Origin: an uncultured Methanosarcinales archaeon
GTDB taxonomy: Archaea; Nanobdellota; Nanobdellia; Woesearchaeales; CAZOXR01
NCBI GenBank assembly: GCA_964566535.1
Contig: CAZMIO010000009.1
Span: 1-43,338 of the forward strand
Direction: 5' to 3'
Length of the DNA stretch: 43,338 nucleotides
Shown: positions 6,001 to 12,000 of the stretch, piece after piece
Layout of the letters: every line of letters begins with the position of its first letter
Numbering within the stretch: position 1 is the stretch's first letter
Made by a program: the position numbers

Positions 6001-9000
6001 CATATAACCATATGAATTTGCTGGATTTACAATTGCATCTACTTCTGCTTCAGTTATATCGTCTTCTTCAATTGAGATGTTCATCTTCTATTAGTTTGCC
6101 TCATCTTAGATATTAATCTTTCTAAAGTGTCTATCTTTTTCATCAGTTCTAGTTTTTCTCTATCTGTTTCTAGGAGCTTATTAGCGTGATTAGTTAATTC
6201 AAAATCTTCCTTTTTTATGTTTTTTCCGATTTCATTTAGGTTAGTTATGTTATTGTTTAATTCTGATGTTTGGTCAACTAACGATGCTAGTTTTTGTCTT
6301 GCATCGTCGTATTTTTGATGGTCTTCTTTTAGTTTTTCTAGGTTAATGTTTAGTTCGTTTTTTAATTCTGTTTCGAATTTTTCAACTAATTTTGTTTGTA
6401 GTTGTGATTTTAATAAGTTGAACTCGTAAACTTCTTTTTTTAGGTCTTCTTTTATGTTGTCAATAGAACCTAAACTTTCTTTTAGGTAATTTAATAGTTC
6501 AGTTTGAGATTCTTTTAAGGTACTGATTTGGTTCTTTAGGTTGTTTATTTCTTCTTTTAGTGGGGAAAGGGTTTTGGTGTGGTTGGCTGTAATTTCATTT
6601 ATCTGATGTATGTGGTCTTTTATTTGCAGAAGGTCTTTTATGTTTTGTAGCATTTTATCTTAGTGATTGTGTTAGTTCGTCTAGTTTTCTTGCATAGGTT
6701 TCAGTTAATTCTTCTCTTCTTACTGGGTCGGTTTCTCCTCCCTGGATTAATCTTTGGGTGCTGACTAAGTATCCTAGGTCAGATTCATATTCTGGAGATG
6801 TTACTTTTGAAAATAGATTTAGTGCATCAGCAGCTTGACTTATTCTTGCTATTGCTTTAAGGTATTCTTGTTGGATTTCAAAGTCTGGAGATTTAGTTAA
6901 AAGACTTACCATAATGCCAAATGGTTCTGCTTGTGATTCTAGGGTAACTCCATTGGTTTGCATCGAATCTGGTTGAAGGTAGATTTCAGAAGATGCTCTT
7001 ATTATGCTCTCTCCCTCGCTGTGATTTAATGGGTAGTCATGAAGCGTTACTCTTGCCCTTGCTCCGTTTTTTTCTGAGTATGATGGGGAAATGTGCTTTA
7101 CGTTTAAACCATGACTCCTAAATAATGGTCTTAAGGCTGTAGTTAATAGTTTTCTTAATTGTTTTTGAACATCTTTATCTATAACAGTTATTGGTGGGTC
7201 ATCCCTCATAGGTTGTTCTTGGTTTAAATTTTGAAAATCATCTAAGAGTCCTTGATACCTTCTTATAGATCTATCATTTACCCTTAAGTAAGTGGAATCT
7301 TCTTGTTCGTCTAGTTCTAGTCTCATTTTTTATCTTAGTAAATGTCTTCTCAATTGCTCTGCTGCTCTTCTTCTGAAGTTTTTAAGTTCTTCAACGTTGC
7401 TCATCTGTCCGTAGGTTTGTTCAGAATCTTTTGGTATGAAGATGGGGTCATGACCGAATCCATAATCCCCTTTTATTTCTGTTGAGATTGTACCATTTTC
7501 TGTTCCTAGGAATGAGATTGGGCGTTTACTTGGCTCGCAAAAAGCAACTGCTGATTTGTACAGTGCAGTTCGGTCTTCAATGCCTTCCATAAGTTTTAGG
7601 ATCCCTTTTAATCCGATTCTTTTGTGGATGTATGCTGAAGAGGTTCCTGGAAAGTCTTTTAATGCAGTTATGAAGAGTCCTGAGTCTTCAACTACTACTG
7701 GCTTTTGGAATTTTTCTGCCATTTGTTTTGCTGCTAGTTTTGCTATTTCTTCTGGACTGTCTGATCTTAGTTCTAGGTAGTTGTAGTCTAATTGTTCGAC
7801 TTTTATCTCTGGCTCTAGAATTTGTTTGAATTCTTTTACTTTGTTTAGGTTTTTAGTTACGAAGGTTATTTTCATGAGAAAGGGGAGGAATTAGTAGTTT
7901 AAAATTTTATCTATTCTATAGTCAAAATACAAGTCCTACTTTGAGAAGTCTGCTGATTTTGCTTGAGTGGCTTTTACTAAATCTTTTGCTTTCATCCTGA
8001 TTGATTTTGTATGTAATGCAGCATTGAAAGCTATGTGTTCATTTTTTAGAACTGAATTGTCTAGGTAAACTTCAATTTGGAATAGGTTGCCAAATGGCGG
8101 GACTGCTCCTATGCTTAAGCCTGAGAGTTCTTTTACTTCTTCTGCTGTTGCCAATTCTATCTTTTTTGTGTTCAGGACATCTTTTAGTTTGTGTAGATCA
8201 ATTTCTTTTGCTCCGGAAACACATGCTTGTACAAATCCTTTTTCTGTTTTGCAGATTAGTGCCTTGCAGCCTTGGTCTAGGGAAGTTCCGCGTACTTTTG
8301 CTGCTTCTTCTGAAGTGTAGACTGGTTTGTGCTCAATAATTTCGTATTCAATATTTGATTTGTTTAGTAAGTCTGTTATCTTTTCGAATATGACTTCTTT
8401 TTTTTGGGCTTTTACAAAATCTAATTTTACATGAAGTTCTTTTAATTGTTTTTCATCAACTTCTGAAGGGGAACCTTCCATCAGTGATTCTGCTGCTTTT
8501 GTCTTTGGGAATGCGATTACTTCTCTTATTGATTCGTTTCCAGTTAGGATTGCAATTAGTCTGTCAAGTCCGAATGCAATTCCGCCGTGAGGTGGAGCTC
8601 CGTATTTGAAAGCATCTAGTAAGAAGCCGAATTTTTGTTTTGCTTCTTGTTTACCGATTCCTAAGATCTTAAACATTTTTTCCTGGAGTTCTGCTTTATG
8701 GATTCTGATTGAGCCTCCGCCTAGCTCTACACCATTTAGCGTCATATCATATGCTTTTGCTCTTACATCTAATGGGTTTGAATCCAGAAGTTCTAAGTGT
8801 TCATCTTTTGGAGATGTAAATGGGTGGTGAATAGCTATGTGTCTTTGTGCATCTTCATCATATTCTACTAATGGGAAGTCGGTTACCCATAGGAAATTGA
8901 ATTTTGTTTTGTCAACAAGTTTTAGTCTTCTTGCTAATTCTAGTCTTAACTGGCCTAATGCAGTATCTACAACGAAATGTTTGTGGTCTCCTACGAAAAG

Positions 9001-12000
9001 AAGCAAGTCATCTTTCTCTGCTTTTGTTTTTTTGATTATTTTTTCTTGTAGGTCTTTATCGAAGAACTTTACAACTGATGATTCTAATTTATCTGTGTAT
9101 TTCATCCATGCTAATCCTTTTGCTTCGTAGATAGCTACAAAACTTGTTAGTTCATCAATATCTTTTCTTGAGAAGTATGCACAGCCTTTTGCATTTATAC
9201 ATCTTACTTTACCGCCCGACTTTACTGCATCTGCGAAAACTTTGAATTCTGAGTTTTTTACTATGTCGCTGACATCAATTAATTCTAGTTCGAATCTTGT
9301 ATCTGGTTTGTCAGTTCCATATCTTTCTATTGCCTCTTTGTGAGTTAATCTTGGGAATGGTGTTTTGATATGGGTGTTCATTATTTTTTCCCATATGTCT
9401 ACCATCAATCCTTCCATTACTGTGTAGATATCTTCTTCGTCTATGAAACTCATTTCAGCGTCTATTTGGGTGAATTCTGGTTGTCTGTCTGCTCTTAGGT
9501 CTTCATCTCTGAAACATTTTACAATTTGGATGTATCTGTCAAATCCTGAGACCATAAGTAATTGTTTGAATAACTGAGGTGATTGTGGAAGTGCGAAGAA
9601 TGTTCCTGGGTTTACTCTTGAAGGTACTAAGTAGTCTCTTGCTCCTTCTGGTGTTGATTTTGCAAGCATAGGTGTTTCGATTTCTATGAAATTGTGCTTG
9701 TCGAAATAATCTCTTACGACTTTTGCTGTTTTGTGCCTTATGATTAAGTTGTTTTGCATGCTTGGGTTTCTTAAGTCCAAGTAACGGTACTTTAATCTCA
9801 TATCTTCGTTTATTTCTACTCTGCCGTCGATTTCTATTGGAGGAGTTTCTGCTTTGTTAAGTATGATTAGTTTGTTTGTGAAAACTTCTATTTCTCCTGT
9901 TGGAAGTTTTTTGTTTTCCATGCCTTCTTTTCTTTTTTTTACGATTCCATGGACTTCTAGAACATCTTCTCTTCTTAGGTGTTCAGCTTCTTTGTGAACT
10001 TCTTCGTTGAACTCTGGGGAGAATGCTACTTGAGTAATTCCATATCTGTCTCTTAAGTCTATGAAGATAACTCCGCCATGGTCACGTCTAGTATCTACCC
10101 AACCATTTAGGGTGACTTTCTTATTCTCGTTTCTTAGCTTTAGCTCTCCGCATGTATGTGTTCGTTTCATTGTTATAATATGGATAGTTGTAAAAGGATT
10201 TATAAATGTTATTGTAAATAGTAATTATATGGTAAGAAAACTGTTTTTGTTGGTTGTTTTGATTTTGTTAGTTGGTTGTTCTAGTGGTTCTTATGTTGAG
10301 ATTGATGGGAAGAGGTTTGATGTAGAGATTGCTGATTCTGCTGCTGAGATGGCTAAGGGACTGATGTTTAGGGCAGAGTTGTGTTCTGATTGCGGGATGT
10401 TGTTTGTGTTTGAGGACGGGGGAGTTCATAGTTTTTGGATGAAGAATACTTTGATTCCACTTGATATGGTGTTTATTGATGCTGATTTTAGGGTTGTTGA
10501 TGTTTTTCATGCTACGCCTTGTTTTGAAGATCCATGTGGGCGATATGTTTCTTCTGGTCTTTATGTTCTTGAGGTTAATTCTGGGGAATTTGATGAGGGT
10601 GTTGTTGGTGAGAAGGTTGAGATGATTATTGAGTAATTTTTTATAATTGCTGATATTTTTAGGTGTAAATGGATGAGAAAACTCTTTTGAAGATTGCTTT
10701 AATCGGTTCTTTAATTGGGTTGTTTGCTTTGTATATTGTTTCTGAGGTTGTTATGATTGAGGAGATTACTCTTGATAGATTGGATGGGATTGATTATGGT
10801 AGGAATGTAAAGGTTAAAGGAGTTGTTGAGAATGTTATTAATGCTGAGAATGTGGTTATTTTTGAAGTGATGCAGCCGAATAGTGTTACTGTTGTTTTGT
10901 TTGAGTCTGGTGTTGAGGTGAGTGAAGGTGATATGGTTGAGGTGATTGGAGAGATTGAGGAGTATGAGGGCAAGAGGGAAGTTATTGGAAATAAGGTGAG
11001 GGTGATAAGTTAATGTTTCTTGAGTTAGTTGTGGCTTTGGTTGTTGGTGTGGTGGCAGGAATATTTACTGGCCTTATTCCAGGAGTTCATATTAATCTGG
11101 TTTCGATATTACTTGTTAGTGTTAGTGGTTATTTTTTAGGCTTTACTAGTCCTTTGGTTTTAGGTGTGTTTATTATTGCGATGTCAGTTACTCATTCGTT
11201 TTTGGATTCGATTCCTTCTGTTTTTTTAGGTGCCCCTGATCCTGATATGGCTTTAGCTGTTTTGCCTGGGCATAGGCTGCTGCTTGAGGGCCGTGGTTAT
11301 GAGGCTGTTAAGTTGACGGTTATTGGTTCGTTGTTGTCACTTATTATGGTAGTTTTGTTGATTCCTGTTTTGATTCCTGTTGTTCCCTTTGTTTATGAGT
11401 TTATTCAACCTTATATTGGTTGGATATTGGTAGCGGTTGTAGTGTATATGATTTTGAAGGAGATTGGGTTGCTTAAGAAGTTGTGGGGAACGTTTGTCTT
11501 TATGTTGTCTGGAATTTTGGGAATAATTGTTTTTAGTATTCCTAATTTGAAGCAGCCGCTTTTTCCTATGCTTTCTGGGTTGTTTGGTGTGAGTACTCTA
11601 TTGATGTCTTTGACAAGCAATACTGAGATTCCTGAGCAGAAGATTACTGAAGAGATTAAGGTGGAGAAGAAGAATCTGGTTAAGGCGGTTGGAGCTGCTA
11701 CTTTTTCTGGTTCACTTACTGGATTGTTTCCGGGTTTGGGTTCTGCTCAGGCTGCTATAATTGCAATAATTGCAGTGCAGATTGTTGGAGATATTGGGGC
11801 GCATGCTTTTATGGTGCTTATTGGTGGGATAAATACAGTTAATTTTGTTTTTAGTTTGGCTACATTTTTTACTCTGTCTAAGGCTCGGAATGGGGCTATA
11901 GTTGCTGTTATGGAGATTTTGGAGTCAATAAATGTTTATGAGTTGGTTGTTTTTTTGGCTGTTGCTTTGATTGTTGGTGGAATTGCTAGTTTTTTAGCTA

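What a model noticed while it worked through the whole genome (the two positions that open the first line are those of the whole stretch)
7936..10170. AspRS fused to a ProX/YbaK-type tRNA editing domain
The only aspartyl-tRNA synthetase (g01151, 744 aa; bacterial non-discriminating type with GAD insert) carries a C-terminal 130-aa YbaK/ProX-family deacylase domain, the only such domain in the genome. I read this as a cis- or tethered editing module for a class IIb synthetase that is not known to need editing, perhaps clearing mischarged tRNA(Asp/Asn) or doing the Ala/Cys-tRNA(Pro) clearing for the INS-less ProRS. New: the same fusion is kept in many Woesearchaeota (GAD-type AspRS) and in CPR bacteria (GAD-less AspRS), i.e. 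on two AspRS backbones, which points to a functional link nobody has described.
Evidence so far: Pfam: tRNA_anti-codon 19-103, tRNA-synt_2 121-558, GAD 312-402, tRNA_edit 614-733 (E 3.5e-31). 59% id to Carboxydothermus ND-AspRS over 1-585. Search with residues 596-744: 177 proteins E<=1e-8, all 120 listed carry PF00152+PF04073; named ones are Woesearchaeota/Nanoarchaeota and Gottesman-, Roizman-, Dojkabacteria. Domain nearest solved: 3op6, T. thermophilus TTHA1699 (2cx5) and A. pernix APE2540 (1wdv), E 5e-17 to 1e-11. Invariant or near-invariant K636 and G688,V690,P691,P692 in 38 aligned sequences. AF2 model pLDDT 86, editing domain about 90. No other tRNA_edit gene; ProRS g00657 lacks INS; no AsnRS/GlnRS, GatCAB+GatDE present.
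(Added by a program. Inside this text positions count along the whole contig: contig position 1 is position 1 of the stretch shown here. "Call 12" and the like, gene names such as g00115 and contig names such as C1 are that model's own, and its searches are not shown. The text may have been shortened before it was handed on; [...] marks where a part breaks off. The agent that wrote the report below was given it as the finding of a first reader that could run no searches.)

Follow-up and report, generated by a model that had tools for sequence, protein, structure and literature searches.

The report
AspRS fused to YeaK-type tRNA deacylase
This archaeon's only aspartyl-tRNA synthetase carries an intact proofreading (aminoacyl-tRNA deacylase) domain on its tail, and in related genomes the same two parts sit side by side as neighbouring genes, which points to an undescribed quality-control step for an enzyme thought to need none.

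Summary
Window 7936-10170 (-) is one 744-aa frame: a bacterial-type AspRS with a GAD insert (1-584), a short low-confidence linker, and a complete PF04073 editing domain (614-733).

- **Domain type:** it is YeaK/ProXp-ST1-like (also PDB 3op6), not YbaK or ProXp-ala.
- **Backbones:** the fusion sits on three AspRS backbones: bacterial with GAD, bacterial without GAD, and archaeal-type.
- **Neighbouring genes:** in the window's phylum most copies stand alone. In 19 of 58 loci examined the free gene lies directly downstream of aspS, often followed by asnS or gatCAB. The fusion is therefore the joined form of a conserved gene pair.
- **Lead on function:** genomes with this deacylase tend to lack D-aminoacyl-tRNA deacylase, in DPANN (DTD2, odds ratio 0.27) and in CPR (DTD, 0.28). 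Neither figure is corrected for kinship. The window's own genome has DTD2.
- **ProRS reading:** not supported. ProRS was near the deacylase gene in 0 of 58 loci.

My best reading is a tethered deacylase that proofreads AspRS products. The acyl target is open: D-Asp, Ser/Thr-like, or Asp-tRNAAsn.

I found no published description. The scan has reported the same fusion on other DNA before (51 notes, at least 48 genomes).

The parts
7936..10170 (-). aspS-edit fusion gene, 744 codons plus stop
9862..10116 (-). OB-fold anticodon-binding domain, residues 19-103
   Evidence: Pfam PF01336, 1.7e-18
8497..9810 (-). class IIb catalytic core, residues 121-558. QSPQ 196-199, R221/D222/E223 and G534/D536/R537 are invariant in 39 fusions.
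   Evidence: Pfam PF00152, 1.3e-128; same coordinates; invariant columns
8965..9237 (-). GAD insertion domain, residues 312-402
   Evidence: Pfam PF02938, 2.4e-22
8383..8418 (-). junction and linker, about residues 585-596. It corresponds to the stop codon and short spacer that separate aspS from the free deacylase gene in relatives.
   Evidence: pLDDT under 50 at residues 584-589; junctions of L052 and L136; DNA
7939..8382 (-). YeaK/ProXp-ST1-like aminoacyl-tRNA deacylase domain, residues 597-744 (Pfam match 614-733 = 7972-8331)
8263..8265 (-). codon of K636, the conserved lysine of the family
   Evidence: K at 97-100% in every group of 262 aligned domains; invariant in alignment A2
8095..8109 (-). 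G688-A-V-P691-P692, the G-x-x-P-P loop
   Evidence: G688 and P692 are 100% in all groups; invariant
5271..5555 (-). gatC, same strand, downstream of aspS-edit
   Evidence: TIGR00135, 90.9 bits, cut-off 47.1
3270..4673 (-). gatA
   Evidence: TIGR00132, 488.9 bits, cut-off 481.1
1636..3048 (-). gatB
   Evidence: NF004012, 557.8 bits; PF02934

Best explanation
The gene makes one polypeptide. Its first part is a working bacterial-type, non-discriminating AspRS. A roughly 10-residue flexible linker joins it to a catalytically intact YeaK-type (INS-superfamily) aminoacyl-tRNA deacylase. I read the deacylase as the dedicated proofreading partner of AspRS. Class II synthetases release product quickly, so the tethered domain would capture the 3' end of a tRNA just charged by AspRS and hydrolyse ester bonds to anything other than L-Asp. 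The conserved Lys636 and the G688-x-x-P-P loop would do the chemistry, as in other INS-family enzymes. Shown here: the domain architecture, the conservation of the motifs, the recurrence on three AspRS backbones, and the conserved aspS-then-deacylase gene order where the two are separate. Inferred: catalysis, capture of the tRNA after release, and the acyl group. My split for the acyl group within this reading is D-Asp about 0.3, a small L-amino acid such as Ser/Thr (as for E. coli YeaK) about 0.2, and the rest open.
For: (1) Intact parts. AspRS scores 875 bits against its equivalog model, and tRNA_edit is full length, profile 1-122 of 123. K636, G688, P691 and P692 are conserved in fused and free forms alike, and no fusion-specific residue changes appear. 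(2) Three backbones. Of 14 fusions scanned, 4 are bacterial with GAD, 5 bacterial without GAD and 5 archaeal-type PRK05159. Within the CPR clade of editing domains the last two types are interleaved. (3) Gene order. Of 58 free-standing genes in the phylum, 25 have aspS within about 5 kb. In 19, aspS is directly upstream on the same strand (gap under 500 bp), and all three AspRS types occur. In L052 and L136 a single in-frame stop separates the two genes. (4) In 0 of 58 loci was ProRS, SerRS, HisRS, GlyRS, PheRS-alpha or ThrRS nearby; AlaRS was nearby in 1 and LeuRS in 2. (5) In the fusions known in print, the editing domain corrects its own synthetase, and a ProXp-ala-ProRS fusion is reported to improve deacylation and to act mostly in trans (passages of PMC11286415). 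(6) A documented AspRS error exists: E. coli AspRS esterified 20% of tRNAAsp with D-Asp (passage of PMC1807948).
Against: No activity was measured. AspRS is not known to mischarge L-amino acids at a rate that needs editing (my own knowledge). In 26 of 58 free-standing loci no Asp/Asn/Gln-tRNA gene was found nearby, and 174 of 301 genomes of the phylum have no such domain, so it is dispensable. The AF2 model has pTM 0.64 and a low-confidence linker, so no defined path from the synthetic site to the editing site is shown. The same domain family is also fused to ThrRS, TrpRS, RuvX, a GmrSD N-domain, a D-Ala-D-Ala carboxypeptidase and a redoxin, so it is a mobile module and not tied to AspRS alone. 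tRNAAsp and tRNAAsn genes could not be identified with confidence in this genome, so no tRNA-side argument could be made.
Confidence: 0.6

Rival explanations
1. Clearing Asp-tRNAAsn. The domain hydrolyses Asp-tRNAAsn, the product of a non-discriminating AspRS, when that product escapes GatCAB or when GatCAB is absent. This would keep Asp out of Asn codons. By extension it might act on Glu-tRNAGln.
For: The window has aspS-edit and gatC, gatA, gatB on one strand. In 26 of 53 GAD-type fusion loci, gatC/A/B follow downstream on the same strand. Free genes lie in aspS-edit-gatC-gatA-gatB (L015, L016), between gatA and gatB (L024), next to gatE (L017, L033, L045; L037 about 1 kb away) and in aspS-edit-asnS orders; asnS is in the stretch in 16 of 58 loci.
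Against: Presence of the domain is unrelated to AsnRS: 88 of 200 AsnRS-positive genomes against 39 of 101 AsnRS-negative genomes have it, odds ratio 1.25, p 0.39. Six of 10 fusion genomes, the window's included, lack AsnRS. They therefore need Asp-tRNAAsn as an obligatory intermediate, which a tethered hydrolase would waste. All four gatE-linked genes are from one family (f12), so they may reflect a single event.
Confidence: 0.12
2. General trans-editing factor. The domain does what free YeaK-like proteins do on many tRNAs: Ser/Thr-tRNA deacylation, or the reader's Ala/Cys-tRNAPro clearing. AspRS merely supplies co-expression, stability or a tRNA-binding scaffold.
For: The nearest characterised relative I could test, E. 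coli YeaK, is described as a Ser-/Thr-tRNA deacylase with broad tRNA specificity (passages of PMC11295145, and PMC11286415). Fused and free forms show no residue differences. The domain fuses to several unrelated partners. It is the only PF04073 gene in this genome, and ProRS lacks INS.
Against: The partner is strongly biased: AspRS directly upstream in 19 of 58 loci against none for ProRS, and three different AspRS backbones carry the fusion. ProXp-ala and YbaK are distant (27.8 and 37 bits). TIGR00011 scores 68.8 bits, below its cut-off of 153. Some CPR genomes with the fusion (G305, G364, G342, G444) also show a tRNA_edit hit on a ProRS-sized ORF.
Confidence: 0.15
3. Non-catalytic role. The domain binds the aminoacylated 3' end without hydrolysing it, for example to hand Asp-tRNAAsn to GatCAB or to protect the ester bond.
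For: NCBIfam holds a model for an AspRS-GatC C-terminal fusion (PRK12820, listed). The AspRS C-terminus is therefore a place where pathway partners are attached. gatCAB is linked.
Against: The residues conserved across the catalytic family are kept at 97-100%. The same domain occurs in genomes with AsnRS, where no hand-off is needed. I know of no INS-family member shown to be a non-enzyme.
Confidence: 0.06

Closest known systems
E. coli YeaK = ProXp-ST1 (free-standing Ser-/Thr-tRNA deacylase, INS superfamily)
   Same: Full-length alignment: BLASTP 83.6 bits, 29% identity over 154 columns; phmmer 69.7 bits, the best of all characterised relatives tested. A profile of the window domain plus 39 free relatives scores YeaK at 124.4 bits, against 71 or less for ProXp-x, YbaK, 1wdv and ProXp-ala. 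hhalign gives probability 99.85%. The R-G, G-x-K-A-L, G-x-x-P-P-F and F-N-A-G motifs are shared.
   Different: YeaK stands alone, and its neighbours in E. coli K-12 are not aspS. Identity is only 29%. I could not obtain ProXp-ST2, ProXp-8 or ProXp-9 sequences, so one of them may be closer. The substrate is untested.
PDB 3op6 ('Uncharacterized protein', 152 aa)
   Same: It is the best solved relative: 5.7e-17 for the single sequence and 128.9 bits, 1.4e-36, for the family profile. It is single-domain, of the same length, and carries the same motifs (alignment).
   Different: It is free-standing and has no described function. One search found no paper in the library naming 3OP6. An earlier scan note calls it Legionella lpg1207; I did not check this.
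ProRS with its INS domain, and the ProXp-ala-ProRS fusions of protists
   Same: An INS-superfamily editing domain sits in one chain with a class II synthetase. The fused ProXp-ala is reported to deacylate better than a free one and to act mostly in trans (passage of PMC11286415).
   Different: There the partner is ProRS, the domain is inserted or N-terminal, and the error corrected (Ala-tRNAPro) is known. Here the partner is the class IIb AspRS, the domain is C-terminal, and the error is unknown. [quoted passage not shown]
D-aminoacyl-tRNA deacylases DTD (PF02580) and DTD2 (PF04414)
   Same: They may overlap in task. Both hydrolyse D-Asp-tRNAAsp (passages of PMC1807948). Their distribution is roughly complementary to the YeaK-like gene in two samples.
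   Different: There is no homology: the Pfam scan of the protein finds neither family. The window's genome has its own DTD2 gene. No INS-family enzyme with D-specificity turned up in my search.

Membership tests
INS superfamily / Pfam tRNA_edit (PF04073) | Match to the family model above the curated cut-off, over the whole domain | tested here: met
   106.2 bits against 25.5; profile positions 1-122 of 123
INS superfamily / Pfam tRNA_edit (PF04073) | Conserved catalytic lysine and glycine-rich G-x-x-x-P loop (the role of these residues is recalled from the literature, not read here) | tested here: met
   K636 and G688-A-V-P-P. K42, G94 and P98 are invariant in alignment A2 and at 97-100% in all groups.
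INS superfamily / Pfam tRNA_edit (PF04073) | YbaK-like fold | not tested
   The AF2 model is confident in this region (pLDDT about 90), but I ran no fold comparison. Sequence matches to solved members are strong.
ProXp-ST1 / YeaK | Closer in sequence to YeaK than to other INS families | tested here: inconclusive
   YeaK 69.7 bits against 2cx5 51.9, 1wdv 48.1, YbaK 37 and ProXp-ala 27.8; profile 124.4 against 71 or less. ProXp-ST2, -8 and -9 were not available. Identity is 29%. No family-specific model with a cut-off was at hand.
ProXp-ST1 / YeaK | [quoted passage not shown] | not testable with these tools
   Needs an enzyme assay
ProXp-ST1 / YeaK | Single-domain, free-standing protein | tested here: not met
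   Here it is fused to AspRS. Close relatives at 38-50% identity are free-standing.
YbaK (Cys-tRNAPro deacylase) | Score above the NCBIfam equivalog cut-offs | tested here: not met
   TIGR00011 68.8 bits against 153.25; PRK10670 30.2 against 243
ProXp-ala (Ala-tRNAPro deacylase) | Close sequence relation to solved ProXp-ala | tested here: not met
   5vxb 27.8 bits, 2.7e-5, partial alignment only. JGI's label 'Ala-tRNA(Pro) deacylase' on relatives is an automatic name.
Bacterial-type AspRS | Equivalog model above cut-off, with a GAD insertion | tested here: met
   NF001750 875 bits against 443; TIGR00459 809.4 against 373.85; GAD 2.4e-22
Non-discriminating AspRS | Charges tRNAAsn as well as tRNAAsp | tested here: inconclusive
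   Inferred only. No AsnRS was found in a 91%-complete genome, gatCAB lies on the same strand 2.4 kb downstream, and it is the only AspRS. No tRNAAsn gene was found.

The most novel reading that the evidence does not exclude
The YeaK-type domain is a third, non-homologous kind of chiral proofreader. It would be a D-aminoacyl-tRNA deacylase aimed first at D-Asp-tRNAAsp, recruited to AspRS (and, in single cases seen here, to TrpRS) in ultra-small archaea and bacteria, where it largely takes the place of DTD2 or DTD. Support: AspRS is a documented maker of D-aminoacyl-tRNA. The gene and DTD2 are anticorrelated in 301 DPANN genomes: 30/97/93/81, odds ratio 0.27. None of 19 genomes with an aspS-adjacent copy has DTD2. 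The same holds for DTD in 191 CPR genomes: 6/61/32/92, odds ratio 0.28, and none of 14 fusion genomes has DTD. Against: these counts are not corrected for kinship; 8 of 10 DPANN fusion genomes, the window's included, do have DTD2; and no INS-family enzyme is known to be D-specific.
Probability: 0.2. Interest if true: 0.9.

Novelty: new variant of a known kind. Interest (0 to 1): 0.68.

Why it matters
AspRS, like the other class IIb synthetases, is taught as an enzyme that works without an editing domain. Here a conserved partnership ties it to an intact deacylase. The partnership appears as a fusion on three backbones, and as a fixed aspS-then-deacylase gene order in at least eight families of one archaeal phylum. 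If the deacylase corrects an AspRS product, it would be the first proofreading step described for aspartate/asparagine decoding. It would also say something about which translation errors matter in organisms with tiny genomes that live on imported amino acids. The question is directly testable: one recombinant protein, one point mutant (K636A) and a small panel of mischarged tRNAs. The complementary distribution with D-aminoacyl-tRNA deacylases adds a concrete and surprising candidate substrate.

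Tried and rejected
**Docking of the two halves.** I ran complex prediction on AspRS 1-588 against editing domain 596-744, both with alignments. 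The verdict was 'no answer' (score 0.00, mark 0.32). This is neither for nor against docking, so whether the domain packs on the AspRS body stays open.

**tRNA-side argument.** I looked for the discriminator base and first pair of tRNAAsp and tRNAAsn. ARAGORN with introns found 28 tRNAs and Rfam RF00005 found 25. None is tRNAAsn. The one ARAGORN calls Asp (C5:10569-10652) reads better as tRNAHis (GUG, canonical 37/38 intron, a G before position 1, C73). I dropped this line.

**Fusion-specific residues.** I searched for residues that would hint at a new acyl specificity. None was found in 262 aligned domains.

**Link to the route of Asn-tRNA synthesis.** No association with AsnRS was found.

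**Wide alignment search.** The search for related loci with the wide alignment A2 failed because it had no conserved stretch. I repeated it with a narrower alignment, A3.

**Model coordinates.** They are not available to scripts, so I could not measure the distance between the synthetic and editing sites.

**Origin of the fusions.** One tree needs many changes. The genome-based tree puts all 26 fusions on one side of a weak branch, support 75. I leave the number of fusion events open.

**Rejected readings.** YbaK or ProXp-ala identity (scores). Assembly chimera (67 independent fused loci).

Full report
**The observation**

Window 7936-10170 on the minus strand is a single ATG-started frame of 744 codons.
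- OB-fold anticodon-binding domain, residues 19-103
- class IIb catalytic core, 121-558
- GAD insertion, 312-402
- a complete tRNA_edit domain, 614-733 (1.6e-30; profile positions 1-122 of 123)

NCBIfam places residues 1-584 in the bacterial aspartate--tRNA ligase equivalog, at 875 bits against a cut-off of 443.

The genome that holds the window is 1.45 Mb in 37 contigs and 91% complete. Its inventory is as follows:
- No other PF04073 match.
- No other class IIb synthetase. The weak second hit in that call is PheRS alpha.
- An archaeal family-I ProRS without INS.
- One class-Ic synthetase only, so no separate GlnRS.
- GatE and GatD.
- An archaeal DTD2.

**Surroundings in the window**

Everything from 1636 to 10170 is on the minus strand. 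Downstream of aspS-edit lie, in order:
- RdgB/HAM1 (7330-7875)
- two ORFs with no family match (6655-7326, 6081-6653)
- a macro-domain protein (5590-6084)
- gatC (5271-5555)
- a cyclophilin-type PPIase (4670-5251)
- gatA (3270-4673)
- gatB (1636-3048)

With no AsnRS in the genome, the only AspRS has to make Asp-tRNAAsn for GatCAB. So 'non-discriminating' is a sound inference, but it is not shown. The same layout recurs. In 26 of 53 GAD-type fusion loci from species-representative genomes, gatC, gatA or gatB follow on the same strand within the 5 kb fetched.

**What kind of editing domain it is**

That is right only for the superfamily. TIGR00011 (YbaK/EbsC) scores 68.8 bits, below its cut-off of 153.

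Against solved structures the single sequence scores as follows:

| Structure | Bits |
|---|---|
| 3op6 | 65.6 |
| 2cx5 | 51.9 |
| 1wdv | 48.1 |
| E. coli YbaK | 37 |
| ProXp-ala 5vxb | 27.8 |

A 2024 review uses 2cx5 as the ProXp-x representative (passage).

YeaK has no solved structure and cannot appear in that search. I therefore took E. coli yeaK from the K-12 record, where it is annotated 'mischarged aminoacyl-tRNA deacylase'. Results:
- It aligns over its full length at 29% identity, 83.6 bits by BLASTP.
- By phmmer it scores 69.7 bits, above every solved relative.
- A profile of the window domain plus 39 free-standing relatives scores 3op6 at 128.9 and YeaK at 124.4. ProXp-x, YbaK, 1wdv and ProXp-ala score between 45 and 71.

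yeaK encodes ProXp-ST1 (passage of PMC7603204), described as a Ser- and Thr-tRNA deacylase (passage of PMC11286415). So the domain belongs with YeaK and 3op6. Whether it is a ProXp-ST1 in the strict sense stays open, because I had no ProXp-ST2, -8 or -9 sequences.

**Distribution of the fusion**

A search of 1.84 billion cluster representatives with the domain alone gave 4119 hits at E<=1e-3 and 933 at E<=1e-10. Most of the best 150 are free-standing proteins of about 155 aa at 38-50% identity.

I scanned 14 fusions with NCBIfam:
- 4 are bacterial AspRS with GAD (about 745 aa).
- 5 are bacterial AspRS whose model match is split where GAD is missing (about 625-665 aa). One is named Dojkabacteria.
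- 5 are archaeal-type aspartate--tRNA(Asn) ligase, PRK05159 (about 595-607 aa). Named examples are Gottesman- and Roizmanbacteria.

That makes three backbones rather than two.

In a scan of species-representative genomes, 174 stretches encode a relative, and I examined the best 80:
- 67 hold AspRS and the domain in one frame: 53 bacterial GAD-type, and 14 others. Of the 14, seven are GAD-less bacterial, five are archaeal-type and two are contig-end fragments.
- 13 are free-standing.

Six of these loci are the same sequences as loci I had already taken from the phylum sample (identical rows).

In a 301-genome sample of the window's phylum, 127 genomes have the domain. Only 10 have it on an AspRS-sized frame, and three have it inside ThrRS. 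The rest have free-standing copies.

**Gene order around the free-standing copies**

I fetched 58 free-standing loci from the phylum sample. I took them from the top of the score list without looking at context. I annotated them with Pfam, NCBIfam and BLAST against reference proteins from this genome and these loci.

- aspS lies within the stretch in 25 of 58.
- In 19 of 58 it is directly upstream on the same strand, with a gap under 500 bp or an overlap.
- All three AspRS types occur in this position. Examples: archaeal type in L015, L022 and L032; bacterial GAD type in L031, L036, L052 and L060; GAD-less in L038.
- The 19 come from at least eight family codes, so this is not a single inherited arrangement. 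The loci are not independent of each other either.
- asnS is in the stretch in 16 of 58, typically as aspS-edit-asnS.
- gatCAB follows in L015 and L016, and L024 has the gene between gatA and gatB.
- gatE is directly upstream in L017, L033 and L045 (L037 about 1 kb away). All four are from one family.
- 26 loci showed none of these genes.
- ProRS, SerRS, HisRS, GlyRS, PheRS-alpha and ThrRS were found near the gene in none of the 58. AlaRS was nearby in one and LeuRS in two.

In L052 the two genes are in one frame, separated by a TGA and three codons. In L136 they are separated by a single TAA followed by ATG. The window's junction (…KLDFVKAQKKEVIFEKI…) lines up with that spacer. The fusion is therefore the joined form of a conserved gene pair, reachable by loss of one stop codon.

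**Trees of the editing domain**

One tree had 203 domains, fused and free (quick IQ-TREE).
- All fusions fall in a weakly supported set (support 82) together with 40 free proteins.
- The GAD-type fusions are mostly one well-supported group.
- Archaeal-type and GAD-less fusions are interleaved.

A second tree had 99 genome-derived domains and was rooted on YeaK.
- The 26 fusions form one side of a weak branch (support 75). It holds a Woesearchaeota group (99) and a CPR group (90).
- Inside the CPR group the two GAD-less backbones are again mixed. For example L145 (bacterial) is sister to L135 (archaeal type).

Either the synthetase body was exchanged under a retained editing tail, or closely related neighbour genes fused several times. 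I cannot tell which. Both imply selection for keeping the pair together.

**Is the domain altered by fusion?**

I compared residue frequencies column by column in 83 GAD-type, 21 GAD-less and 16 archaeal-type fusions, 119 free proteins and 23 others. No position is fixed in the fusions and different in the free forms. H614, T619, S620, R627, K636, G688, P691, P692, F715, N716, S723 and D730 are kept throughout. I take this to mean that the fused domain does what the free protein does.

**Tether or docked?**

AF2 with a 39-row alignment gave mean pLDDT 84.7 and pTM 0.64. Residues 584-589 are under 50, and the editing domain is about 90. This fits two well-folded bodies joined by a short flexible link. 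It does not fix their relative position. The AspRS dimer with its tails is too large for the complex tool, and model coordinates are not open to scripts.

**Which error?**

I tested three candidate targets against genome content.

*1. Asp-tRNAAsn.* The gene's presence does not depend on whether AsnRS is present: 88 of 200 genomes with AsnRS against 39 of 101 without, p 0.39. Six of the 10 fusion genomes lack AsnRS and so depend on Asp-tRNAAsn as an intermediate. This makes it an unlikely main target, although the gat linkage keeps it alive.

*2. Ala/Cys-tRNAPro.* The family assignment and the gene order speak against it. In addition, some CPR genomes with the fusion (G305, G364, G342, G444) show a second tRNA_edit hit on a ProRS-sized ORF. 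I read these as INS-type ProRS from the rows alone.

*3. D-Asp-tRNAAsp.* This is the one AspRS error I could find documented.
- E. coli AspRS esterified 20% of tRNAAsp with D-Asp.
- DTD1 acts on D-Tyr-, D-Asp- and D-Trp-tRNA.
- P. abyssi DTD2 also hydrolyses D-Asp-tRNAAsp.

All three statements are from passages of PMC1807948.

In the 301-genome sample DTD2 is present in 123 genomes and bacterial DTD in 1. The cross-tables are:

| Sample | deacylase+ / DTD+ | deacylase+ / DTD- | deacylase- / DTD+ | deacylase- / DTD- | Odds ratio | Fisher p |
|---|---|---|---|---|---|---|
| DPANN phylum, 301 genomes, DTD2 | 30 | 97 | 93 | 81 | 0.27 | 1.6e-7 |
| CPR class, 191 genomes, DTD | 6 | 61 | 32 | 92 | 0.28 | 0.007 |

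Further points on the DPANN table:
- None of the 19 genomes with an aspS-adjacent copy has DTD2.
- For the 30 families whose totals were printed, presence or absence per family gives 8/7/14/1, p 0.035.

Further points on the CPR table. It is a second, independent sample of 191 genomes of the class around the Gottesmanbacteria genome of L135.
- I set aside 26 genomes whose only hits look like ProRS-INS. That left 67 genomes with a YeaK-like gene. DTD is present in 38 of the 191.
- None of 14 fusion genomes has DTD.

Other fusion partners fit the theme loosely:
- P0261 carries two tRNA_edit domains in front of a TrpRS fragment.
- P0177 and P0196 carry the domain in front of a D-Ala-D-Ala carboxypeptidase.

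Results against the D-Asp reading are equally clear:
- These tests ignore kinship.
- Within families I saw no clear anticorrelation.
- Many genomes have neither gene.
- 8 of the 10 DPANN fusion genomes, the window's included, have DTD2.
- The ThrRS fusions do not fit.
- My search found no INS-family enzyme with D-specificity.

One unpublished genome sits in the AsnRS table (G243) and one in the CPR table (G372). Leaving them out changes nothing.

**Comparison with what is known**

In print, INS-superfamily domains are joined only to ProRS (INS, and N-terminal ProXp-ala in some protists) and to a plant-specific C-terminal domain. A 2024 review says the other members are single-domain proteins and that ProXp-7, -8 and -9 have no known function (passages of PMC11295145).

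I searched full text for AspRS with YbaK, ProXp, tRNA_edit or YeaK, for 3OP6, and for YbaK together with DPANN or CPR names. None returned a paper describing an AspRS-linked editing domain. The library holds open-access papers and bioRxiv only. I could not read the 2013 and 2020 classifications of the superfamily or Liu et al. 2015; they are cited here only through the reviews.

Earlier notes of this scan report the same fusion on other DNA: 51 notes in at least 48 genomes. Their conclusions are compatible with mine: YeaK type, three AspRS kinds, fused or adjacent, and a tie to Asn-tRNA genes. I treated them as leads and re-derived each point here. The tests against AsnRS, DTD2 and DTD content did not appear in the notes shown to me.

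**Verdict**

Its ProRS alternative is not supported.

The thing is a new variant of a known kind: a YeaK-type INS-superfamily deacylase permanently attached to a class IIb synthetase. My confidence is about 0.6 that it proofreads AspRS products. The acyl target is unresolved. The D-Asp reading is the boldest that the evidence allows, at about 0.2.

Noticed in passing
L013:1475-4273 (-) and L014:2239-4986 (+); also G103:C14:9167-9505: These are ThrRS genes of 916-935 aa in three genomes of the same phylum. A tRNA_edit domain is inserted between the archaeal N-terminal editing domain (tRNA-Thr_ED) and the catalytic core, so the synthetase has two editing domains. The inserted domains form their own long branch near the root of the tree.
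   Followed up: partly
P0121, P0125, P0159, P0261, P0161, P0170, P0177, P0196, P0263: The same domain family has other architectures: two or three tandem copies; two copies in front of a TrpRS fragment; and fusions to RuvX, a GmrSD N-domain, D-Ala-D-Ala carboxypeptidase and a redoxin.
   Followed up: partly
L052:5441-5590 (-) and L136:3627-3776 (+): aspS and the free deacylase gene are in the same reading frame. In L052 they are separated only by TGA plus three codons. In L136 they are separated by TAA directly followed by ATG. Read-through of the stop would give the fusion protein.
   Followed up: partly
L017, L033, L045 (and L037): In one family of the phylum (f12) the free deacylase gene lies directly downstream of gatE instead of aspS.
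   Followed up: partly
window 8386-8388 (codon of I594); protein P0275: The protein collection holds a 151-aa gene call identical to residues 594-744, with the ATA codon of I594 read as a start. P0278 and P0280 are similar short calls, named YbaK/EbsC family proteins by NCBI. Their contig lengths equal those of L084 and L089, where I find the frame open across the junction. Annotation pipelines seem to split some of these fusions.
   Followed up: partly
G000:C5:10569-10652: ARAGORN calls this tRNA His without an intron and Asp with one. Read by eye it fits tRNAHis: GUG anticodon, a 13-nt intron at the canonical 37/38 position, a G before position 1 and C73. Only 25-28 tRNA genes were detected in the whole genome, many with introns, and none for Asn.
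   Followed up: partly
window 6081-7326 (-): Two adjacent ORFs (190 and 223 aa) between the macro-domain gene and rdgB have no NCBIfam match. The first is rich in Lys, Glu, Leu and Asn, like a coiled coil.
   Followed up: no
window 435-1646 (+): This is an Mre11/SbcD-like nuclease. It scores far below the archaeal Mre11 equivalog cut-offs (105 bits against 600).
   Followed up: no
L073, L080, L081, L128, L143, L151, L152 and others: Several public records that hold these fusions are titled 'uncultured Methanosarcinales archaeon' or 'uncultured Gammaproteobacteria/Pseudomonadales bacterium'. Their editing domains nevertheless group with Woesearchaeota or CPR sequences. The record titles look unreliable.
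   Followed up: no
G302:C43:431-797: This CPR genome has the AspRS fusion. Its only DTD-like stretch is in two pieces with a TAA between them, possibly a decaying dtd gene.
   Followed up: no
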